Assembly: GCF_001462395.1 (NCBI RefSeq)
Contig: NZ_LNTB01000001.1
Location: forward strand, 120,001 to 152,000
Direction of reading: 5' to 3'
Length of the DNA: 32,000 nucleotides
Origin: Pyrodictium occultum
GTDB lineage: Archaea > Thermoproteota > Thermoprotei_A > Sulfolobales > Pyrodictiaceae
In this document: one piece after another, positions 526-28,600 of the stretch
Layout: the number at the start of each line of letters is the position of its first letter
Position numbering within the stretch: position 1 is the stretch's first letter
The notes under the pieces: model-generated
The model's input: the letters and a program-made list of their open reading frames with translations, nothing else
Database searches by the model: none
Told to the model about the DNA's origin: nothing
Position numbers and translations under genes: made by a program

Positions 526-604
526 TGGTGCGGCGGCCGGGATTTGAACCCGGGATCGCCGGCTTGGAAGGCCGGCGTCCTAGTCCAGGCTAGACGACCG
601 CCGC
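526..604 (-). tRNA. tRNA-Gly, anticodon UCC, CCA encoded, no intron
   Basis: The reverse complement reads GCGGCGG-TC-GTCTAGCCTGGACTAGGAC-G-CCGGC-CTTCCAA-GCCGG-CGATC-CCGGG-TTCAAAT-CCCGG-CCGCCGC-A-CCA. It folds as a full cloverleaf with a 7-bp acceptor and 5-bp anticodon and T stems. The anticodon loop CTTCCAA gives TCC. Confidence 0.9.
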
Positions 605-795: not shown

Positions 796-870
796 GCCGC
801 CGTAGCTCAGCGGGAGAGCGCCCGGCTGAAGACCGGGCGGTCCGGGGTTCGAATCCCCGCGGCGGCACCA
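796..870 (+). tRNA. tRNA-Phe, anticodon GAA, CCA encoded, no intron
   Basis: The sequence reads GCCGCCG-TA-GCTC-AGCGGGA-GAGC-G-CCCGG-CTGAAGA-CCGGG-CGGTC-CGGGG-TTCGAAT-CCCCG-CGGCGGC-A-CCA. This is a canonical cloverleaf, and the anticodon loop CTGAAGA gives GAA. Confidence 0.92.
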
Positions 871-20810: not shown

Positions 20811-21362
20811 TTGGACCCCTCCCTCGCCGCTCCAGCGGCTCTCGCCGCCTTGGTGGCAGGGCTCGCGGCATGGTGTAGCCTCTGGAGGAGGCGCCTTGAG
20901 GACCGGTATAGGATGCTTGAGGAGAGGCTGAAGGCTGTATCCAGGGAGATGGACAGGGTGCTGAAGGCTGCCAGCTACGCGCTCCAGAGCATGGAGGCCG
21001 AGGAGTTCCTGGAGAGGTTGCGTAGGAAGAGGCGGCGCCGCTACATAGCCTTCTACATAGTCTACGAGGGCGATGAGCCCCCCTCGCCCGAGGAGGTCGA
21101 GCAAGCGGTGAAGAGGGCCGTAGAGAGGCTGGCAGGCCAGCTAACAGTTGCCCTCTCGCGGCTCCAGCTAGTCTACTACGACCCCGAGAGAGCCGCCGGG
21201 GTGCTCAGAGCATCTCATGACACCAAGTACCTGGTGCTGGCCGCTCTCGGGCTCGTGAGGCGCGTTGGGGGCCGACGCGCGGTGATAATCCCCGTGAGGA
21301 CTAGCGGCACTATAAAGAGGGCTAAGCAGGCTCTTGCAGCTGACAAGCGGAGGCAGGTATGA
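20811..21362 (+). CDS. rnp2: Ribonuclease P protein component 2 (Pop5 homologue), with an in-frame ~60-aa N-terminal extension in the open frame
   Basis: The Pop5 core begins at KRRRRYIAFYIVYEGDEPPSPEEVEQAVKRAVERLAG...LVYYD...GVLRASHD...IIPVRTSGTIKRAK. The ATG at 20991 would give a normal ~123-aa Pop5. The TTG at 20811 gives 183 aa. Confidence 0.75.
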   Translation: MDPSLAAPAALAALVAGLAAWCSLWRRRLEDRYRMLEERLKAVSREMDRVLKAASYALQSMEAEEFLERLRRKRRRRYIAFYIVYEGDEPPSPEEVEQAVKRAVERLAGQLTVALSRLQLVYYDPERAAGVLRASHDTKYLVLAALGLVRRVGGRRAVIIPVRTSGTIKRAKQALAADKRRQV

Positions 21363-22132
21363 GGGCTGTGGGTGCACGGCCATACACGGTTATATTCTCG
21401 ACAGCCACCGTCGACGGGAGGATAGCATCCTCAACAGGCTACAGCATGCTGAGCTGCAGCTACGACTTGACGAGGCTCCGCTTGCTCCGCGGCGCCGCCG
21501 AGGCGGTGATGGTGGGGGCGTCCACCGTTCTGCTAGATAACCCCTCTCTCAGGAAGAGGCTCGAGCCCCGCAGCGACCGGTACTACCGGGTGGTGGTTGA
21601 CGGGCGGCTTCGGATCCACGAGGATCTACGCCTCCTCCGGGAGCCGGGGCCGCCGGTCATAGTGTTCACGGCCACCCGTGACCCTGAGAAGATTAGGCGC
21701 CTAGAGTCCCGTGGGGCCCGCGTCCACCTAGTCGGGGATGACGGCGTCATTGACCTCGGGGAGGCCATGAGGATACTTGTGACAGTGTACGGTGTCCGCC
21801 GGCTGCTTGTCGAGGGCGGGGGAGTGCTCAACTATAGCATGCTAAGGGAGGGCCTCGTGGACGAGCTTAGGGTAACCTACACCCCCTACGTATTCGCCGC
21901 GGGGAGGAGCGTGGTCGACGATCCAGAGGCCCGGGGCTTCGCCACAACCAGCGAGTCCCCCAGGCTGAGGCTAGTATGCATGGAGAAATGCCCCTGCGGC
22001 AACTGCGTCCATGCAGCCTACCGGGTGGAGTCTACCTGCTGCCCCCCTGCCTCCGGGCCCTACATAGAACCCTGCCTCTCCCAGAAGCTTAGAGGGCTTA
22101 CAACGAGGGCTGAGCAGCTCTACGAGTGGTGA
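21359..22132 (+). CDS. arfC: 2,5-diamino-6-ribosylamino-4(3H)-pyrimidinone 5'-phosphate reductase (RibD C-terminal-domain family, ArfC type) with a Cys-rich C-terminal tail
   Basis: RPYTVIFSTATVDGRIAS, AVMVGASTVLLDNPSL and RRLLVEGGGVLNYSMLREGLVDELRVTYTPYVF are reductase-domain motifs. No deaminase domain is present. The start overlaps the Pop5 stop (ATGA). Confidence 0.82.
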   Translation: MRAVGARPYTVIFSTATVDGRIASSTGYSMLSCSYDLTRLRLLRGAAEAVMVGASTVLLDNPSLRKRLEPRSDRYYRVVVDGRLRIHEDLRLLREPGPPVIVFTATRDPEKIRRLESRGARVHLVGDDGVIDLGEAMRILVTVYGVRRLLVEGGGVLNYSMLREGLVDELRVTYTPYVFAAGRSVVDDPEARGFATTSESPRLRLVCMEKCPCGNCVHAAYRVESTCCPPASGPYIEPCLSQKLRGLTTRAEQLYEW

Positions 22133-22138
22133 ACGGGA

Positions 22139-22876
22139 ATGCCGCTGCTGGTCGGTGTGATAGCGCTGCTAGGGTACAGGGAGTGGACCGAGAGCCTAGG
22201 CTATGACAGAGAGTGGGCCATCCAGGGGAGGCAGGCCGCCATATACCGGGCCGCCGTGGAGGCTGCAGCCCTGCATGGAGGCCACGTCATCCCGGCCAGC
22301 CACGATATAATGATCGCGCTGCTGAACGGTGTGCCCCTCAGGGCGGTGGAGAGCCTATACAAGGCCATGTCCCGAGAGTCCCCGGTCCCCGTGGCCATTA
22401 GGGTTACCAGCACCAGCCGCCCCGGCTGGAGCATGCCCCCTCTCGAGCCGGGTGTAGTCTTTGACGGGGAGCCGGAGGAGCCCGGCTCGGAAGTGGCAGC
22501 GATACATATAGACATGAACGGTGTCAGCTCGGAGAGACTCCGCAAGGGCTTCATAACCCCGTTCGCCGAGGTTGCGAAGCTTCACGCCCGGCTCGTGGAG
22601 AAGGCTCTGCCCAGGGGCTACATACCGGGCTATCTGGGCGGCGACAACCTGGTAGTTTTTGCACCAGCGGAGGAGCTTGAAGAAGCCCTGGAGCTTGTCC
22701 AGAGGCTCATAGATGGCGGAGGCTACAAGCTCGGTGTCGGCGTCGCCGCGTCGCCTAGGGAAGCGCTCGCCCGCGCCGCCCACGCGTTATCCGTGATAAG
22801 GAGTAGGAGGGACCTCAGCCTCTACATAATCGGGCCCGGGGAAAAGCCAGCGCTCAGGAGCCCGGGCCGCTGCTAA
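22139..22876 (+). CDS. arfA: GTP cyclohydrolase III (ArfA type)
   Basis: VAAIHIDMNGVS, YLGGDNLVVFAP and KLGVGVAASPREA match the corresponding blocks of the Methanocaldococcus enzyme as I recall it (IAHIDINN, FIGGDNFMAP, KAGIGIG). The product is 245 aa. Confidence 0.75.
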   Translation: MPLLVGVIALLGYREWTESLGYDREWAIQGRQAAIYRAAVEAAALHGGHVIPASHDIMIALLNGVPLRAVESLYKAMSRESPVPVAIRVTSTSRPGWSMPPLEPGVVFDGEPEEPGSEVAAIHIDMNGVSSERLRKGFITPFAEVAKLHARLVEKALPRGYIPGYLGGDNLVVFAPAEELEEALELVQRLIDGGGYKLGVGVAASPREALARAAHALSVIRSRRDLSLYIIGPGEKPALRSPGRC

Positions 22877-22929: not shown

Positions 22930-23643
22930 TTGGCGGGCAGCCTGGATGAGGCTCTCGAGGCTCTCCGCAGGGGCCTCCCAGTGCTAGTCCACGATGACGA
23001 GGCCCGCGAGAACGAGGTAGACTACGTTATACATGCCTCAAGGGTTACAGTGGACCACATCTACGAGATGCGGATGCTAGCGGGAGGCCTCATCTGCTAC
23101 GCCATGCCGCTCCAGGCCGGCAGGCTCCTCGGGCTGCGCTACGGCTACGAGATCATAGCAAGTATACCGGAGCTGGCGCCGCTGGCCAGCCGCACCCTGG
23201 GGTACGGCGACCAGCCAGCCTTCTCCATATGGGTTAACAGCGTGCGCGCGAGGACCGGTATACGGGACCGCGACCGAGCCACCACTATAAGGGAGCTGGA
23301 CCGGGTGCTCTCGATGATTGTGGATGGCAGGGTGGGGGAGGCCCGCCGCTACTTCCTGGAGAACTTCGTGGCGCCCGGCCACGTGCCCATACTCCTGGGC
23401 CGTAGGCTCCGCGAGAGAAGGGGGCATACGGAGCTCTCCCTCCACCTGGCAATGCTGGCTGGGATGACGCCTTCAGTCGTAGTGGTGGAGATGCTTTCAA
23501 AGGGGGATGTCCTCAGCGTTGAGGAGGCAGGGAGACTCGCCAGGGAAAAGGGGATCCCCCTGGTCGAGGGTAGCGAGATAATAGACCTGGTGGAGAGGCT
23601 TGGTGAAGATCTGTATTGTAGATACAACCTTTGCCAGGGTTGA
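22930..23643 (+). CDS. ribB: 3,4-dihydroxy-2-butanone 4-phosphate synthase
   Basis: EALRRGLPVLVHDDEARENEVDYVIHAS ... GHTELSLHLAMLAGMTP are DHBPS motifs. It has a TTG start. Confidence 0.88.
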   Translation: MAGSLDEALEALRRGLPVLVHDDEARENEVDYVIHASRVTVDHIYEMRMLAGGLICYAMPLQAGRLLGLRYGYEIIASIPELAPLASRTLGYGDQPAFSIWVNSVRARTGIRDRDRATTIRELDRVLSMIVDGRVGEARRYFLENFVAPGHVPILLGRRLRERRGHTELSLHLAMLAGMTPSVVVVEMLSKGDVLSVEEAGRLAREKGIPLVEGSEIIDLVERLGEDLYCRYNLCQG

Positions 23644-24067
23644 CATGGCTAGGCACGCTATAGACGTGCTCCTAAACCTGATGCCGGGCGCCAGGATAGT
23701 GCGCCGCACCGTGCCGGGTATTAAGGACATACCAGTAGAGATCAAGAGGCTGATGAAGAAGGAGGACTGTGATGCAGGCATGGTTTTCGGCTGGGTGGGC
23801 AGGACGCTTAACGATAAGATAAGCTACGGGGTCTACAGCCTGGCCATGCAGCTTGTCCAGCTCGAGCTCGAGAAGCATATAATAGATGTAACCGTCCACG
23901 AGGACGAGGCCGAGAGCGAGGAGGAGCTATACCGGATAGCCGTTGACCGGGCGCGGAAGCATGCGGAGAACCTCTACCTGCTCCTCTACCGCCCCGACGT
24001 TCTCACCGAGCGCGCCGGGACGGGGAGGAGGCAGGGCTATCCAGACGCAGGCCCGATAACATGGTAA
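23600..24067 (+). CDS. ribC: Riboflavin synthase, archaeal type
   Basis: KICIVDTTFARVDMARHAIDVL is the signature N-terminus of archaeal (lumazine-synthase-like) riboflavin synthase. The product is 155 aa and overlaps ribB by 44 nt. Confidence 0.85.
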   Translation: MVKICIVDTTFARVDMARHAIDVLLNLMPGARIVRRTVPGIKDIPVEIKRLMKKEDCDAGMVFGWVGRTLNDKISYGVYSLAMQLVQLELEKHIIDVTVHEDEAESEEELYRIAVDRARKHAENLYLLLYRPDVLTERAGTGRRQGYPDAGPITW

Positions 24068-24081
24068 CCCCTGGGCTCCTC

Positions 24082-24089
24082 CTTAAAAT
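24082..24089 (+). promoter_or_regulatory. TATA-like box (CTTAAAAT) in front of ribH
   Basis: It is the only A/T-rich octamer in the ribC-ribH gap. Its centre is ~35 nt before the ribH TTG (24121), compatible with a short-leader transcript covering ribH and the amidohydrolase. Confidence 0.35.
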
Positions 24090-24120: not shown

Positions 24121-24594
24121 TTGAGAGTGGCTGCGGGGGAGGGAGTGAGGCTGGCTATAGTGGTGTCCGAGTTCAACCACGATGTCACCTACCTTATGCT
24201 CCAGCGCGCGCTCAGCCACGCCAAGTTCCTCGGGGCCACGGTAACCTATGTGGCTAGGGCGCCGGGCGCCTACGATATGCCCCTCCTGGTTGAGAAGCTG
24301 CTTCGCAAGGACGATGTAGACGCTGTCGTGGCCCTCGGCGCCATAATAACCGGCGCCACCAAGCACGACGAGGTTATAGCGCATCAGATAGCCAGGAAGC
24401 TCATGGACCTCGCGGAGAAGTATGGGAAGCCTGTCACCCTCGGAATCTCCGGCCCCGGGATGAACAGGATGCAGGCGCTTGAGCGCGTCGACGACTATGC
24501 GCGCCGCTCAGTGGAGGCCGCCGTCAAGCTAGTGAGGAGGCTTAGGGCGCTTGATGAGGCCCAGTACGAGGGGGAGACGGTCTACATCGAGTAA
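24121..24594 (+). CDS. ribH: 6,7-dimethyl-8-ribityllumazine synthase
   Basis: RLAIVVSEFNHDVTYLML, APGAYDMPLLVEKLL and VVALGAIITGATKHDEVIAHQ are lumazine synthase motifs. Confidence 0.9.
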   Translation: MRVAAGEGVRLAIVVSEFNHDVTYLMLQRALSHAKFLGATVTYVARAPGAYDMPLLVEKLLRKDDVDAVVALGAIITGATKHDEVIAHQIARKLMDLAEKYGKPVTLGISGPGMNRMQALERVDDYARRSVEAAVKLVRRLRALDEAQYEGETVYIE

Positions 24595-24598
24595 GAGT

Positions 24599-25720
24599 GT
24601 GCAGGTGGAGGTGCTGGCCGCCCTAGCCGGCGGCGAGCTCGAGCCAGTGAGCAGGCCATGCATAGACCTGGACGACGAGGGCGTGGTAAGAGGCCTGGGG
24701 AAGGGCTGCAGCCCCTCGAGACGGCTGCTCCCGGGGGTTGTCGTCCTCCCAGCGCTCTGCAACGCTCATCTCCACATACTCGACGCCTCTATAGCCGAGG
24801 CCGGGGAGACGCTGCCTCTCAACGAGCTGGTGGAGCTGCCCACGGGGCTGAAGTACCGGCTCCTTTCCAGCCTAGGCGACGAGGAGATAGCTGAGAGGGC
24901 CTCCACGGTCGCCGCCCGCGCTGCATCGGAGGGGGCGCTGTACGCCGGCGTCTACGCCGAGCTGGGGGCGAGGGGCGTAGAGCTGGTCAGGAAGATAATG
25001 TCCGCGCCCGGCTCCTCGGCCAGGATACTGGCCCAGCCGGAGTCGAAGAGCCTGGAGGCCTACAGCCGGCTCCTCCGCGAGGTGGGAGGCGTCGGGCTGG
25101 ACACGGCCCTCGACCTCGCCCCCTGGGAGCTTAAACAGCTCGCCGGCGAGGCGAGGCGCATAGGCGGCCACGTGCACGTGCACGTATCCGAGACACCTGA
25201 GCTCTACCGTTCCAGGGACTACGAGCTGGTCCTCGAGACCCGGCCCTCCGCAGCCATCCATCTCACTTACCTGAGCCCCGAGGAGCTGACGGAGCTGGCC
25301 AGGGCCGGGATAGGCTTGGTCTTCTGCCCCCGTTCCAACATGTACCACCTGGGCCGGCTCCCGGCGCTAAGCCTCATCCCGGCCCTGGCCAGGGAGACCA
25401 TGGTGGCGCTCGGCACCGATAACGCCGCCTGGGTACCCCCTAGGGTTGCGGAGGAGATGGCGTTCGCGTACATAGCCGCCCACTCGCCCGGCAGAAGCAG
25501 CGCCGAGGCCCTGGCCGAGACACTCCTTCGGGCAGCCACCCTGGACTGTGCTAGGCTCCTCGGCCTGGAGGCGGCGGCGGTGGAGGAAGGCGCCCCCGCA
25601 GACAGGCTCCTGGCGGCTGCGCTCCCCGAGGCCCAGTGGAGCGGCTCGCTCCGGGTCACCCTGGTGAAGAGGCTCTCCGGCGCCCCAGTATCGATTCTAC
25701 AAGCTCTTCTAGCCGGGTGA
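24599..25720 (+). CDS. Amidohydrolase-superfamily protein with the deaminase-type catalytic set (guanine/cytosine-deaminase / TRZ-ATZ-like branch)
   Basis: The track ORF starts at 24551 inside ribH. GTG 24599, 4 nt after the ribH stop, is the likely start. The motifs (track numbering) are NAHLH (H73, H75), HVHVSE (H211-x-x-E214), AIHLTY (H237) and LGTDNAA (D290). Confidence 0.75.
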   Translation: MQVEVLAALAGGELEPVSRPCIDLDDEGVVRGLGKGCSPSRRLLPGVVVLPALCNAHLHILDASIAEAGETLPLNELVELPTGLKYRLLSSLGDEEIAERASTVAARAASEGALYAGVYAELGARGVELVRKIMSAPGSSARILAQPESKSLEAYSRLLREVGGVGLDTALDLAPWELKQLAGEARRIGGHVHVHVSETPELYRSRDYELVLETRPSAAIHLTYLSPEELTELARAGIGLVFCPRSNMYHLGRLPALSLIPALARETMVALGTDNAAWVPPRVAEEMAFAYIAAHSPGRSSAEALAETLLRAATLDCARLLGLEAAAVEEGAPADRLLAAALPEAQWSGSLRVTLVKRLSGAPVSILQALLAG

Positions 25721-26348
25721 CCGCTTCTCCGAGCAGCCTCTCCCCAAGCCTCCTCGAGGCCGGGACGGGCTCAGCCGGGTAGATGCCGGGGACGTCCCTA
25801 GCCACCCAGGGCTGGAACCCAGGCGAGCTACGGAGGCACTCCTCCCCCAGCTCCTCTACCGGCTTGACGCCCTTGGAGTGGCCACAGGCTAGGAGGATGC
25901 TCGCTTCCACACAGTCCGCGTGGATCAACGCCTCCCTGCCGAGGGCCCTGGAGACTGTATCCCAGAAGTTGAAGAGGTAGGCGTCATGGCCGCGGCCCCG
26001 GAGCACCCTGGCAGCCAGGTAGGCGGCGTGGAAGGCGCCTCCGTGGAACACAGCGAACACGAGGCTGCGGGCGCCCTGGAGGATAGAGGAGCCAGCCTCG
26101 ACGAGGTAGCGTATGAATGTCTCGGGCGATAGGGATACGCGGAACCCCTCATGCTCCATTGCTGTCGAGTACGGTATTGGAGGGGCTACAGCCGCCCCCC
26201 GGGGGAGCCTCAGCCTCTCAGCCACGCACCTGGCTATCAGCAGGTCCGAGCCCAGCGGCAGCACCCCATGGTTCTCGATAGACGCTATCGGCTGTACCAC
26301 TAGCTCCACCCGCTCCCCGGGCCCGAGAAGCTCCAGCAGCGCTGCCAA
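25656..26348 (-). CDS. arfB: Creatininase-family amidohydrolase, probable 2-amino-5-formylamino-6-ribosylaminopyrimidin-4(3H)-one 5'-phosphate deformylase (ArfB type)
   Basis: PIASIENHGVLPLGSDLLIA, VFHGGAF and IHADCVEAS are the creatininase-fold metal-site blocks in a divergent form. Its context in the riboflavin cluster supports the call. The 3' end overlaps the convergent amidohydrolase by 65 nt. Confidence 0.6.
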   Translation of the reverse strand: MAALLELLGPGERVELVVQPIASIENHGVLPLGSDLLIARCVAERLRLPRGAAVAPPIPYSTAMEHEGFRVSLSPETFIRYLVEAGSSILQGARSLVFAVFHGGAFHAAYLAARVLRGRGHDAYLFNFWDTVSRALGREALIHADCVEASILLACGHSKGVKPVEELGEECLRSSPGFQPWVARDVPGIYPAEPVPASRRLGERLLGEAVTRLEELVESILGRRRASSPG

Positions 26349-26494: not shown

Positions 26495-27346
26495 GTGAGC
26501 CGGCTGCGCCGCTCCTTAATACCCCCATTACCTGTGCCCAGTAGTGAGGCTCCCGGCTCCAGCTGCACGCCCCTAAGCATCGCTCTGGGGGAGAGATGCG
26601 CTGTGGACGTCGAGGGTAGGAGCAATTCACTGCTTTCGCCCTCCGAGCTTCTCCGCTACGAGCGGCAGATACCGATATTCGGGGTCGAGGGCCAGGAGAG
26701 GTTGAAGAAGGCTAGCGTGCTGGTGGCTGGGGTAGGCGGCCTGGGCTCCTTCGAGGCCCTCTACCTGGCGGCGCTCGGTGTAGGGAAGCTAGTCCTTGTG
26801 GACGGCGATGTGGTGGACGAGTCCAACCTCAACCGTCAGGTGCTCTACACGGTGGATGACCTAGGTAGGCCAAAGGCCATAGCCGCCGCCGAGAAGCTTA
26901 GACGCTTCAACCCCAATGTCGAGATAGTAGCTGTATCCGAGCGTATAACCGAGGACAACGTGGATGGACTCGTCTCCGAGGCCGACTACGTTATAGACGG
27001 CCTCGACAACTGGGAGGCAAGGTTCATACTCGATAGGGCCGCCTACCGGAGAGGTAAGCCCTTTGTACACGCGGGGGTCTACGGGCTCCAGGGCCAGGTC
27101 ATAGTTGTTGTCCCCGGCGAGACCCCTTGCCTCCGCTGCCTCCTGCCCCCCTCCCTCAAGACTCCGGCCAAGATACCTGCAGTGGGCCCCGTGGTCGCGC
27201 TCGTCGGCTCAATAGCCGTGACCGAGCTTATGAAATTGATCACCGGTGTGGGAGAGGTCAGCAAGGGGCGCATGATAATAATAGACGCATACAACATGGA
27301 TTTAATGAGGGTTCATCTTAAGCAGCGTGCAGGCTGCAGCTGCTAG
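26495..27346 (+). CDS. ThiF/MoeB/HesA-family E1-like adenylyltransferase
   Basis: LLRYERQIPIFGVEGQERLKKASVLVAGVGGLGS, LVDGDVVDESNLNRQ, DNWEARFILDRAAYRRGKPFVHAG and PCLRC are present, plus a terminal CSC. The true start is probably GTG 26603, since the first ~36 residues are low-complexity. Confidence 0.85.
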   Translation: MSRLRRSLIPPLPVPSSEAPGSSCTPLSIALGERCAVDVEGRSNSLLSPSELLRYERQIPIFGVEGQERLKKASVLVAGVGGLGSFEALYLAALGVGKLVLVDGDVVDESNLNRQVLYTVDDLGRPKAIAAAEKLRRFNPNVEIVAVSERITEDNVDGLVSEADYVIDGLDNWEARFILDRAAYRRGKPFVHAGVYGLQGQVIVVVPGETPCLRCLLPPSLKTPAKIPAVGPVVALVGSIAVTELMKLITGVGEVSKGRMIIIDAYNMDLMRVHLKQRAGCSC

Positions 27347-27355
27347 CCCCCGCGG

Positions 27356-27385
27356 CTATTAATGGCCTAACTATTAATGGTCTAA
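27356..27385. repeat. Tandem 15-nt direct repeat, CTATTAATGGCCTAA / CTATTAATGGTCTAA
   Basis: I read it directly from the sequence. The two adjacent copies differ at one position and lie in the 87-nt gap upstream of thiI. Each copy contains the A/T core ATTAAT. Confidence 0.8.
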
Positions 27386-27433
27386 ATCTGGACAGCCTGC
27401 CTTGTCGGAGCCGGCCGCCTCCGGGACCGCGCC

Positions 27434-28600
27434 ATGGAGGATAGGGTTGTTCTCGCCAGCGTCTCAGGCGAGATAGTCCTCAAGTCCGAGAGGACTAGGC
27501 CTAGGTTCGAGCAGAGGCTCATAAGGAACATACTGGATGCCTTCTCCAGGAGCGGCGTCGGCTGTAGGAGGGTGTGGATACACGCCGCCCGCCTCTACGT
27601 CTCCGGCTGCAGCGACGGAGAGTTAGAGAAGGCTGTGGATACGCTTACCAGGGTCTTCGGGGTCCATTGGGCTACGGTGGCTCACGTGGTAGAGTATAAG
27701 GTGCTCGAGGACTTGGCTGAGCGTGTCAGGGAGATAGCCGGGGACTGGGTGCGCGGGAAGAAGTTCGCCGTCCGCGCCAGGAGGAGCGGGGCTGAGGGCT
27801 TCACAAGCCTCGAGGCTGCCAGGGTGATAGGCGCCGCCCTCTACCCGCTCTCCGCCGGCGTAGACCTGGAGAACCCCGAAGTGGAGGTCCATGTAGAGAT
27901 CCGGGGCAGGAGAGCCTACGTCTACCGGGAGACGCGGAGGGGCCCCGGAGGCCTCCCCGTGGGTGTTGAGGGGAGGGTACTCGCCCTCTTCTCCGGCGGC
28001 CTCGACTCCCCCGTGGCGGCCTGGATGGCCGCTAAGAGGGGCGCGGAGGTGGACCTGCTCCACTATGTGCTCGCCAGCCCCGCCTCGCTCGGCGACGCGC
28101 TCCGTGTGGGCTACCGGCTCGCCGGCTCCTGGCTCTACGGCTACCGGCCAAGGCTCTACGCCATCGACTTCCGCCCCGTCACCAGGGCTATAGCGGGCCT
28201 CGTCGAGCGTAGCTACGCCCAGCTCGTCCTCAGGCTAGCCATGTACGTGGCCGCGGAGAAGATGGCCCTGGAGCTGGGGTACGACGCCCTCTACACGGGG
28301 GAGAGCGTGGGCCAGGTCTCGAGCCAGACGCTGAAGAACCTCAGCGCCCTCGCCCGCGCCAGGCCCCTACGGGTCCCGCTTATCCGGCCCCTCGCCGGCC
28401 TGGACAAGGAGGAGATAGTGGATCTTACGAGGCGGATAGGGGTCTATGAGGAAGCGTCCAGGACGAGGGAGTACTGCCGCCTAGCCAGCGGCCCGGCCAC
28501 CACCCGGGGCAGCCCCAGGAAGCTCGCAGAGGAGTACGCCAAGGTTGAGAGCGTGGTGGAGCAGAGCACTAGGCAATATATTGAGATTCCCCTCGTCTAG
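27434..28600 (+). CDS. thiI: tRNA 4-thiouridine / thiamine sulfur-transfer protein ThiI (THUMP + PP-loop, no rhodanese domain)
   Basis: The N-terminal ferredoxin-like/THUMP part reads GEIVLKSERTRPRFEQRL, FAVRARRSG. The PP-loop reads LALFSGGLDSPVAAWM, followed by TGESVGQVSSQTL and RPLAGLDKEEIV. The protein ends after the PP-loop domain at 388 aa. Confidence 0.88.
   Translation: MEDRVVLASVSGEIVLKSERTRPRFEQRLIRNILDAFSRSGVGCRRVWIHAARLYVSGCSDGELEKAVDTLTRVFGVHWATVAHVVEYKVLEDLAERVREIAGDWVRGKKFAVRARRSGAEGFTSLEAARVIGAALYPLSAGVDLENPEVEVHVEIRGRRAYVYRETRRGPGGLPVGVEGRVLALFSGGLDSPVAAWMAAKRGAEVDLLHYVLASPASLGDALRVGYRLAGSWLYGYRPRLYAIDFRPVTRAIAGLVERSYAQLVLRLAMYVAAEKMALELGYDALYTGESVGQVSSQTLKNLSALARARPLRVPLIRPLAGLDKEEIVDLTRRIGVYEEASRTREYCRLASGPATTRGSPRKLAEEYAKVESVVEQSTRQYIEIPLV

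What the first reader, a model, noticed from the sequence alone, without database searches (positions are those of the whole stretch)
24599..25720. Deaminase-type amidohydrolase joined to ribH in a near-complete archaeal riboflavin cluster: candidate for the unassigned pyrimidine deaminase
The island encodes ArfA (GTP cyclohydrolase III), a creatininase-family ArfB candidate, ArfC (reductase domain only), RibB, RibH and archaeal RibC. That covers every assigned step from GTP to riboflavin in the archaeal (reduce-then-deaminate) route. The exceptions are hydrolytic deamination of 2,5-diamino-6-ribitylamino-4(3H)-pyrimidinone 5'-phosphate and the phosphatase step. No cytidine-deaminase-fold (RibD-N/Rib2-like) domain is visible anywhere in the window. 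Four nt after the ribH stop, a GTG opens a 373-aa ORF carrying the full catalytic set of the deaminase branch of the amidohydrolase superfamily. That set is HxH (NAHLH), HxxE (HVSE), a further His (AIHLTY) and the Asp of GTDN. This branch includes guanine and cytosine deaminases, which remove an exocyclic amino group from an amino-oxo-pyrimidine ring. That is the chemistry required at C2 of the riboflavin intermediate. A TATA-like box at 24082-24089 suggests ribH and this gene form their own two-gene unit. To my knowledge the archaeal deaminase has not been biochemically assigned. I cannot tell from here whether this family has already been proposed in comparative-genomic annotation.
Basis: partly seen in the sequence, partly recalled or inferred. 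Interest (0 to 1): 0.78.

Follow-up and report, generated by a model that had tools for sequence, protein, structure and literature searches.

The report
Predicted archaeal riboflavin pyrimidine deaminase gene
The gene after ribH in this Pyrodictium occultum riboflavin cluster is a real metal-dependent deaminase and a divergent relative of MJ0699, the family already proposed (but never tested) as the missing archaeal riboflavin pyrimidine deaminase, so the idea is well supported but not new.

Summary
Window 24599-25720 (+) is a real gene, 100% identical to a Pyrodictium occultum 'amidohydrolase family protein'. It has the HxH / HxxE / His / Asp deaminase signature and a confident amidohydrolase-barrel model (pLDDT 96.6). 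It sits between ribH and a creatininase-type ArfB candidate, in an arfC-arfA-ribB-ribC-ribH cluster.

The protein is a full-length homologue of MJ0699 (hhalign E 5.8e-74), and NCBIfam PRK07213 is its only full-length hit. Relatives lie inside or beside rib operons in Nitrososphaerales, Bathyarchaeota, an Asgard MAG, Methanothrix and Pyrodictiaceae. Of 80 genome loci, 24 are directly adjacent to a rib gene. One relative is fused to a creatininase domain.

The hypothesis is not new. This family (MJ0699/HVO_2483, 'PyrD', SEED 'Pyrimidine deaminase archaeal predicted') was proposed in 2010, and papers from 2017 and 2021 still call it an untested prediction. I found no biochemical test in the searchable literature.

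The window protein is a divergent member: 120.6 bits against a 294-bit cut-off. Substrate and reaction remain inferred. Interest is moderate to low: a sound rediscovery of a still-open, testable question.

The parts
24599..25720 (+). Amidohydrolase-superfamily deaminase gene (373 aa from GTG 24599). Alternative starts are TTG 24551 and ATG 24554, giving 389 and 388 aa. It is a divergent member of the MJ0699/PRK07213 family.
   Evidence: The AlphaFold2 model has pLDDT 96.6. Foldseek's best hits are COG0402-type deaminases with TM 0.75-0.78.
24761..24775 (+). NAHLH: the HxH metal ligands (H57, H59) at the end of strand 1.
   Evidence: H59 is invariant and H57 and N55 at least 90% conserved across 84 family members. 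The motif aligns with the NTHTH (HxH) motif of TM0936, which from recalled literature holds metal ligands H55/H57.
24845..24859 (+). GLKYR: a family-specific loop motif (G83 and K85 invariant). Inferred to contact the substrate, possibly its phosphate or ribityl group.
   Evidence: The TM0936 and OLEI01672 chains shown lack the motif at these columns. The functional role is inference only.
25181..25192 (+). HVSE: the HxxE motif (H195 metal ligand, E198 proton shuttle).
   Evidence: (both invariant).
25259..25261 (+). H221 (in AIHLTY), the strand-6 catalytic His.
   Evidence: (invariant).
25325..25339 (+). CPRSN: a family-typical motif. C243 is invariant; R245 and N247 are at least 90% conserved. 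The three related deaminases shown aligned have Glu, Ala or Val where this family has Arg.
25412..25423 (+). GTDN: D274 is the strand-8 metal ligand.
   Evidence: (G, D and N invariant).
24121..24594 (+). ribH (6,7-dimethyl-8-ribityllumazine synthase), directly upstream.
   Evidence: PF00885, 125.9 bits; TIGR00114, 149 bits, above the cut-off.
24082..24089 (+). TATA-like CTTAAAAT in the 53-nt ribC-ribH spacer. A possible internal promoter for ribH plus the deaminase gene.
   Evidence: A similar AT-rich box is present in Pyrofollis. Not statistically unusual, and untested.
25656..26348 (-). Creatininase-family ArfB (formamide hydrolase) candidate. It is convergent, and its 3' end overlaps the deaminase gene by 65 nt.
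   Evidence: PF02633, 94.4 bits. The same pairing occurs in L005 and L006. P0183 is a creatininase-amidohydrolase fusion.
21359..22132 (+). arfC (archaeal pyrimidine reductase, RibD_C domain only).
22139..22876 (+). arfA (GTP cyclohydrolase III).
   Evidence: PF05165, 96.3 bits.
22930..23643 (+). ribB (DHBP synthase).
   Evidence: NF004437, 294 bits, above the cut-off.
23600..24067 (+). Archaeal ribC (riboflavin synthase).
   Evidence: TIGR01506, 192.9 bits, above the cut-off.

Best explanation
The gene encodes a mononuclear-metal deaminase of the amidohydrolase superfamily. It belongs to the MJ0699/HVO_2483 ('PyrD', PRK07213-like) family.

**Most likely function.** It acts in archaeal riboflavin (and, where present, F420/FO) biosynthesis, after ArfA, ArfB and ArfC. 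It would hydrolytically remove the 2-amino group of 2,5-diamino-6-ribitylamino-4(3H)-pyrimidinone 5'-phosphate, giving 5-amino-6-ribitylaminouracil 5'-phosphate. After dephosphorylation, that product feeds RibH.

**Inferred mechanism.**
1. H57, H59, H195 and D274 hold one divalent metal.
2. The metal activates water for attack on C2.
3. E198 and H221 shuttle protons to the leaving ammonia.
4. The family-specific basic residues (K85, R87, R245, R358) are candidates for holding the ribityl phosphate.

**Shown versus inferred.**
- Shown: the gene, fold, catalytic set, homology to MJ0699, and synteny and fusion with riboflavin genes.
- Inferred: the substrate, the reaction and the residue roles.
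For: **Fold and catalytic set**
- Pfam Amidohydro_1.
- AlphaFold2 model with pLDDT 96.6.
- The nearest solved structures are COG0402 deaminases: MTA/adenosine, isocytosine and guanine deaminases, TrzN and AtzA.
- H59, H195, E198, H221 and D274 are invariant and H57 at least 90% conserved in 84 relatives.

**Family**
- The only full-length NCBIfam hit is PRK07213 (120.6 bits). All other hits are below 48 bits and cover only the C-terminal half or so of the protein.
- MJ0699 (Q58110 = P0402) scores 589 bits on that model.
- Window protein versus MJ0699: 27% identity over 360 aa, E 8e-30.
- Profile-profile comparison: probability 100%, E 5.8e-74 over 351 columns.

**Context**
- The same cluster occurs in Pyrofollis.
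- ribH-AH-creatininase occurs in an otherwise unrelated context.
- arfC-ribC-ribH-arfA-AH.
- arfC-AH next to cofH/cofG.
- Of 80 genome loci from many archaeal phyla, 31 carry a rib gene within 8 kb and 24 are directly adjacent to one. Examples are ribB-ribH-arfA-AH-arfC in Nitrososphaerales and ribB-ribC-ribH-arfA-AH-arfC-arfB in Bathyarchaeota.
- A creatininase-AH fusion is found on three contigs.

**Literature**
- The family was proposed as the archaeal pyrimidine deaminase from clustering and co-occurrence.
- It is counted in 15 predicted RbkR (riboflavin regulator) regulons.
- RibD-type deaminase domains are reported as apparently missing in Archaea (PMC5397151; PMC8305020).
Against: - No member of the family has been assayed, as far as the searchable literature shows.
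- The window protein scores far below the NF005552 cut-off (120.6 against 294 bits). It belongs to the most divergent clade.
- 49 of 80 genome loci show no rib gene within 8 kb. Most Halobacteria, ANME and Methanococcales loci are in this group.
- A few homologues occur in bacteria: Trueperaceae, Spirochaetales and Paenibacillaceae. From general knowledge, bacteria normally use RibD, so the family may not have a single function.
- The rest of the P. occultum genome could not be searched for a CDA-fold deaminase or for paralogues.
Confidence: 0.7

Rival explanations
1. It is a deaminase for a different amino-substituted purine, pterin or nucleoside (for example guanine, 5'-deoxyadenosine, MTA/SAH, isocytosine or a pterin). 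On this view it serves salvage or damage control, and its position in the rib cluster is incidental or regulatory.
For: - The nearest solved structures and the weaker NCBIfam hits are such enzymes.
- Many family members are not linked to rib genes.
- Some members are bacterial.
Against: - Scores against all those families are tiny: 48 bits or less, against cut-offs of 320-617, and limited to roughly the C-terminal half.
- The family has its own invariant motifs (GLK, CPRSN).
- Linkage to rib genes recurs, in different gene orders, across Thermoproteota, Nitrososphaerales, Bathyarchaeota, an Asgard MAG and Methanothrix.
- There is a fusion to a creatininase domain.
Confidence: 0.12
2. It is the riboflavin-pathway deaminase, but it acts in the bacterial order. 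It would deaminate the ribosyl intermediate (2,5-diamino-6-ribosylamino-pyrimidinone 5'-phosphate) directly after ArfB and before reduction, at least in this lineage.
For: - The gene is paired with the ArfB-type creatininase in the window, L005 and L006.
- It is fused to a creatininase domain in P0183. Such arrangements often join consecutive steps.
Against: - The reduce-then-deaminate order was established in Methanocaldococcus jannaschii (as summarised in PMC5397151).
- In many other archaea the gene sits between arfA and arfC, or next to arfC.
- Gene order is weak evidence for reaction order.
Confidence: 0.1
3. It catalyses a different hydrolytic step of the pathway. It could be an alternative formamide hydrolase for the ArfA product, or a hydrolase acting on a pathway side-product.
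For: - The amidohydrolase superfamily includes C-N hydrolases other than deaminases, such as imidazolonepropionase and formiminoglutamate deiminase, which appear among the weak hits.
- phmmer with the window's creatininase found no ArfB-like ORF next to the gene in the Nitrososphaerales clusters.
Against: - The window and several other clusters carry both a creatininase-type ArfB candidate and this gene.
- The HxH/HxxE/H/D set is the deaminase signature (plus established knowledge of subtype III amidohydrolases).
- The deaminase is the only remaining C-N hydrolysis gap.
Confidence: 0.05

Closest known systems
[quoted passage not shown] 2017)
   Same: - Full-length homology (hhalign E 5.8e-74).
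- The same catalytic residues and family-specific motifs: GLKxR, CPRSN and GTDN.
- The same habit of clustering with arfA, arfC, ribH and arfB.
- The same predicted reaction.
   Different: - Only 27% identity to MJ0699.
- It scores 120.6 bits against the 294-bit equivalog cut-off, so NCBI names it only 'amidohydrolase family protein'.
- It belongs to a separate, divergent clade (Pyrodictiaceae and relatives), with its own gene order: ribH-AH-arfB.
- The family's function is itself untested.
COG0402-type subtype III amidohydrolase deaminases: TM0936 MTA/SAH deaminase, Pseudomonas and Xanthomonas adenosine/MTA deaminases (4dyk, 4dzh, 4gbd), isocytosine deaminase Vcz, guanine deaminase, AtzA/TrzN
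   Same: - The (beta/alpha)8 barrel with a small beta-sandwich domain (TM 0.75-0.78).
- HxH, HxxE, His and Asp align residue for residue with the TM0936 motifs. From recalled literature these are H55/H57, H200/E203, H228 and D279.
- Hydrolytic removal of an exocyclic substituent from an N-heteroaromatic ring.
   Different: - 15-21% identity.
- About 370 aa rather than 400-470.
- Arg in CPRSN, where the three related deaminases shown aligned have Glu, Ala or Val.
- The GLK motif has no counterpart in the two chains aligned over that region.
- The predicted substrate is a phosphorylated ribityl-diaminopyrimidinone.
RibD N-terminal domain / fungal Rib2 (cytidine-deaminase-fold pyrimidine deaminases of riboflavin biosynthesis)
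   Same: The same type of reaction at C2 of the pathway pyrimidine. Rib2 acts on the same reduced (ribityl) substrate.
   Different: An unrelated fold and zinc site (H/C-A-E ... PCxxC). No such motif occurs in the window. If the prediction holds, this is a non-homologous (analogous) replacement.

Membership tests
Amidohydrolase superfamily, mononuclear deaminase group (COG0402-like) | (beta/alpha)8 barrel with an adjoining beta-sandwich domain | tested here: met
   AlphaFold2 model with pLDDT 96.6 and pTM 0.94. The Foldseek top 50 are nearly all amidohydrolase-fold enzymes, mostly deaminases, with TM up to 0.78.
Amidohydrolase superfamily, mononuclear deaminase group (COG0402-like) | HxH (strand 1), HxxE (strand 5), His (strand 6) and Asp (strand 8) | tested here: met
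   H57/H59, H195/E198, H221 and D274. All but H57 (at least 90%) are invariant in 84 relatives. They align to the corresponding TM0936 motifs.
Amidohydrolase superfamily, mononuclear deaminase group (COG0402-like) | Binds one divalent metal and releases ammonia from an amino-heterocycle | not testable with these tools
   Requires the purified protein.
NF005552 / PRK07213 (MJ0699 equivalog; predicted archaeal pyrimidine deaminase) | Score at or above the curated cut-off of 294 bits | tested here: not met
   120.6 bits. For comparison: MJ0699 scores 589, Haloferacaceae P0079 scores 303.8, and Haloarcula P0034 scores 282.6. The protein is therefore filed as a divergent relative, not an NCBI equivalog.
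NF005552 / PRK07213 (MJ0699 equivalog; predicted archaeal pyrimidine deaminase) | Full-length homology, with this model as clearly the best family | tested here: met
   The alignment covers residues 9-360 of the protein and positions 10-368 of 382 in the model. The next family scores 47.8 bits. hhalign gives probability 100% and E 5.8e-74.
NF005552 / PRK07213 (MJ0699 equivalog; predicted archaeal pyrimidine deaminase) | Family-specific conserved motifs (GLK, CPRSN, GTDN, C-terminal Arg) | tested here: met
NF005552 / PRK07213 (MJ0699 equivalog; predicted archaeal pyrimidine deaminase) | Chromosomal clustering with riboflavin genes (the basis of the published prediction) | tested here: met
   The window itself; L005-L008; and 24 of 80 genome loci directly adjacent to a rib gene.
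NF005552 / PRK07213 (MJ0699 equivalog; predicted archaeal pyrimidine deaminase) | Deaminates 2,5-diamino-6-ribitylamino-4(3H)-pyrimidinone 5'-phosphate | not testable with these tools
   Not shown for any family member in the literature I could search.
RibD-N / Rib2 CDA-fold pyrimidine deaminase | Cytidine-deaminase fold with H/C-A-E and PCxxC zinc motifs | tested here: not met
   No Pfam dCMP_cyt_deam hit for this protein or its nine neighbours. No such motif in six frames of the window.
Guanine deaminase (TIGR02967) and MTA/SAH/5'-deoxyadenosine deaminases (NF005557, NF006252, NF004995) | Score at or above the curated cut-off | tested here: not met
   30.6 bits against 375; 23.9 against 522; 42.1 against 617; 23.3 against 567. 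All hits are C-terminal only.

The most novel reading that the evidence does not exclude
In the Pyrodictiaceae-type clade the deaminase works physically or kinetically coupled to the creatininase-type ArfB. Three observations point that way: a conserved ribH-AH-arfB triad, overlapping 3' ends, and a natural creatininase-AH fusion elsewhere. On this reading it deaminates the ribosyl intermediate before reduction. Some archaea would then run the 'bacterial' order of steps with a non-homologous, amidohydrolase-fold deaminase.
Probability: 0.1. Interest if true: 0.55.

Novelty: new member of a known kind. Interest (0 to 1): 0.35.

Why it matters
In the papers read here, the C2 deamination is listed among the remaining gaps in archaeal riboflavin synthesis, with a family-level candidate but no biochemical proof; those papers also list a phosphatase gap and, in haloarchaea, an unconfirmed ArfB candidate. 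The same intermediate feeds the F420 chromophore FO.

Confirming this family would show that an amidohydrolase-fold enzyme replaces the cytidine-deaminase-fold RibD/Rib2 domain, which is a case of non-homologous displacement. It would also correct the generic 'chlorohydrolase' or 'amidohydrolase family protein' names seen on the homologues retrieved here.

The Pyrodictium protein adds a thermostable, divergent member embedded in an unusually complete rib cluster. That makes it a convenient protein to assay. The hypothesis itself has been in print since 2010, so the finding does not open a new question.

Tried and rejected
1. **Genome scan attempts.** The search for related loci with the broad alignments A1 and A2 failed because no stretch was conserved enough. 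A narrower four-sequence alignment, A3, worked. Its top 80 loci were ranked by similarity to a Methanosarcinales-like query, so Sulfolobales, Thermococcales and M. jannaschii itself were not sampled.\n2. **Finding MJ0699.** It was not named in any hit table. I reached it by querying with a Methanothermococcus homologue and then listing the members of the clusters found.\n3. **HVO_2483.** It could not be retrieved directly. The link rests on PMC8305020 pairing it with MJ0699 at 34% identity, and on a Haloferacaceae family member showing 33% identity to MJ0699.\n4. **Hyperthermus butylicus.** A look-up of its contig failed because the protein is not on record.\n5. **Supplementary tables.** Those of Rodionova et al. 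are not held.\n6. **Solved structures.** No close one exists.\n7. **The creatininase domain of P0183.** It is too divergent from the window's ArfB candidate for BLASTP, so only family-level identity (Pfam) supports the fusion argument.\n8. **Rejected readings.** It is not a chance ORF, a CDA-fold deaminase, a guanine deaminase, or a DadD-type deaminase.\n10. **Other checks.** The Rfam and tRNA scans showed nothing relevant near the gene.
Full report
**1. What is in the sequence**

The window is Pyrodictium occultum DNA. The ORF product is 100% identical to an NCBI 'amidohydrolase family protein' of that species, annotated at 388 aa.

The ORF runs from 24551 to 25720 on the + strand. Two upstream starts are also possible: TTG 24551 and ATG 24554, the latter being the NCBI start. 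A GGAGG lies 10-13 nt before them. Most homologues begin near the GTG position. The start is therefore unresolved, but this does not matter for function.

- NAHLH at 24761-24775
- HVSE at 25181-25192
- H221 at 25259-25261
- GTDN at 25412-25423

- arfC, with a RibD_C domain only
- arfA (GCH_III)
- ribB
- archaeal ribC
- ribH
- a convergent creatininase-family gene, whose 3' end overlaps the ORF by 65 nt

A six-frame motif search found no cytidine-deaminase signature in the window.

The TATA-like CTTAAAAT at 24082-24089 exists. However, AT-rich octamers are common here, at about 114 in 32 kb. Pyrofollis has a comparable box before its ribH. An internal promoter is plausible but unproven.

**2. 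What the protein is**

Pfam places it in Amidohydro_1 (E 1.5e-19). Its only full-length NCBIfam match is NF005552 / PRK07213 'chlorohydrolase', at 120.6 bits against a cut-off of 294. Every other family scores 48 bits or less and matches only the C-terminal half or so of the protein. These include guanine deaminase, 8-oxoguanine deaminase, the MTA/SAH and 5'-deoxyadenosine deaminases, HutF and SsnA.

No close solved structure exists. An AlphaFold2 model built on 84 relatives is very confident, with pLDDT 96.6 and pTM 0.94. Its nearest PDB neighbours are COG0402-type deaminases and dechlorinases, at TM 0.75-0.78 and 15-21% identity:
- TM0936
- Pseudomonas and Xanthomonas adenosine/MTA deaminases
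- the isocytosine deaminase Vcz
- guanine deaminase
- TrzN and AtzA

A profile alignment to TM0936 puts the family's HxH, HxxE, His and Asp on that enzyme's corresponding motifs. From recalled literature, those are its metal ligands and catalytic residues.

Across 84 relatives, H59, D62, K85, E121, H195, E198, H221, C243, D274 and N275 are invariant. N55, H57, R245, N247 and R358 are at least 90% conserved. The GLK(H/Y)R and CPRSN motifs are typical of this family. The three related deaminases shown aligned carry Glu, Ala or Val where this family has Arg in CPRSN.

**3. Link to the published candidate**

The literature already contains this idea.
- Rodionova et al. 2017 (PMC5397151) state that RibD-type deaminase domains are apparently missing in Archaea.
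- They report that a candidate archaeal pyrimidine deaminase, 'PyrD', was proposed by Osterman, Overbeek and Rodionov (2010). [quoted passage not shown]
- They note that the prediction remains to be tested. They count PyrD in 15 predicted RbkR regulons.
- Pfeiffer and Dyall-Smith 2021 (PMC8305020) name the genes, HVO_2483 and MJ0699 (Q58110), and again call for experimental confirmation.

I retrieved MJ0699 as P0402. It scores 589 bits on NF005552, so PRK07213 is the MJ0699 family.

The window protein aligns to MJ0699 over 360 residues, at 27% identity and E 8e-30. A profile of the window's clade aligns to a Methanococcales/haloarchaeal profile with probability 100% and E 5.8e-74 over 351 columns. 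A Haloferacaceae member is 33% identical to MJ0699. That matches the 34% quoted for HVO_2483.

An exhaustive HMMER search found 476 clusters (at 50% identity) with E of 1e-30 or better. Seventeen sampled members from different subclusters all had PRK07213 as their best NCBIfam hit. Their scores form a continuum from 83 to 589 bits. The window's clade (Pyrodictiaceae and relatives) is the most divergent.

**4. Genomic context elsewhere**

Rib-linked arrangements:
- Pyrofollis japonicus has the same cluster as the window: arfC-ribB-ribC-ribH-AH, with a convergent creatininase.
- An unrelated metagenomic contig has ribH-AH-creatininase on one strand, with otherwise different neighbours.
- Another contig has arfC-ribC-ribH-arfA-AH.
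- Another has arfC-AH next to cofH/cofG. Those genes make FO from the same pyrimidine.

Among 80 species-representative genome loci spanning many archaeal phyla, 31 carry at least one riboflavin gene within 8 kb. Of these, 24 are directly adjacent to one. Typical arrangements are:
- ribB-ribH-arfA-AH-arfC in Nitrososphaerales
- ribB-ribC-ribH-arfA-AH-arfC-arfB in Bathyarchaeota
- arfA-AH-arfC in an Asgard MAG
- divergent arfC/AH in Methanothrix
- AH-Usp-CBS-arfC in Methanolobus

One representative, P0183, is a single 542-aa ORF on three contigs from several samples. It joins a creatininase domain to this amidohydrolase.

Set against this, most Halobacteria, ANME and Methanococcales loci are not linked to rib genes. 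A few homologues are bacterial.

**5. Most likely mechanism**

By analogy with subtype III amidohydrolase deaminases (established knowledge), one metal bound by H57, H59, H195 and D274 activates water. E198 and H221 move protons, and ammonia leaves.

The substrate that fits the pathway gap is 2,5-diamino-6-ribitylamino-4(3H)-pyrimidinone 5'-phosphate, the ArfC product. The conserved basic residues (K85, R87, R245, R358) are candidates for binding the ribityl phosphate.

I put the probability of this reading at about 0.7. The rivals are:
- a different amino-heterocycle substrate (0.12)
- deamination of the ribosyl intermediate before reduction (0.10)
- another hydrolytic step (0.05)

**6. Verdict**

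It reproduces a prediction published in 2010 that papers from 2017 and 2021 still describe as untested. I found no experimental test in the searchable literature.

What this window adds is a divergent, thermophile member that current NCBI rules leave unnamed. It sits in one of the most complete rib clusters seen, and I also found a creatininase fusion elsewhere that strengthens the pathway link.

Novelty: a new member of a known (predicted) kind. Interest: 0.35.

Noticed in passing
L004 6756-7979 and the equivalent position in L047, L049, L058, L060, L062, L076, L082 and L085: In haloarchaea, a 407-aa HD-domain phosphohydrolase lies upstream of the amidohydrolase gene on the same strand in all nine loci, mostly directly adjacent. 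It has PF01966 plus HD_assoc_2 and only faint similarity to dGTPases. In Haloarcula, cofD and a PTP-like phosphatase are also nearby. The riboflavin-pathway phosphatase (EC 3.1.3.104) is still a gap in haloarchaea (PMC8305020), so this conserved pair may be worth testing.
   Followed up: partly
L089 6001-7629; L090 313-1941 (protein P0183): A natural fusion of a creatininase-family domain with this amidohydrolase family, as a 542-aa ORF on three metagenomic contigs. The organism is unknown, and none of its neighbours has a Pfam hit except a second amidohydrolase.
   Followed up: partly
L001, L017, L018, L025, L034, L042, L045, L056, L059, L061, L064, L068, L070, L071, L073, L074, L078, L084, L086 and L088, downstream of the match: A second conserved neighbourhood: amidohydrolase, universal-stress protein, then a 280-aa four-CBS protein (HhpR-like). 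It occurs in Methanosarcinales, Methanocellales, Methanoperedens and Methanothrix. In Hadarchaeales the Usp gene is absent. In Methanolobus the run continues directly into arfC. The meaning is unknown.
   Followed up: partly
window 22010-22132 (C-terminus of arfC): The ArfC reductase ends in a Cys-rich tail (CPCGNCVH...TCC...C). The tail is conserved in Pyrofollis but absent from other ArfC proteins aligned. It may be a small metal-binding extension. It is too short to be a CDA domain, despite containing a PCxxC string.
   Followed up: partly
window 25656-25720: The deaminase gene and the convergent creatininase gene overlap at their 3' ends by 65 nt. The overlap is 48 nt in Pyrofollis (L005). 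In L006 the two genes are co-directional and overlap by 29 nt.
   Followed up: no
window 24536-24556: Start-codon ambiguity. A GGAGG at 24536-24540 precedes TTG 24551 and ATG 24554 (the NCBI start), inside the end of ribH. The 16 extra residues are Ser/Arg-rich, and the closest homologue (P0002) has similar ones. That similarity may simply reflect the overlapping ribH frame.
   Followed up: partly
L063 9130-10395: In Methanothermococcus, a UbiD-family (prenyl-FMN-dependent decarboxylase-like) gene overlaps the 3' end of the MJ0699-type gene.
   Followed up: no
window 526-604 (-) and 796-870 (+): Two tRNA genes, Gly(TCC) and Phe(GAA), in an AT-rich stretch at the start of the window.
   Followed up: no
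window 26495-28600: Directly beyond the rib cluster lie a ThiF/MoeB-type adenylyltransferase and a ThiI (THUMP plus PP-loop) gene. The same pair follows the cluster in Pyrofollis.
   Followed up: no
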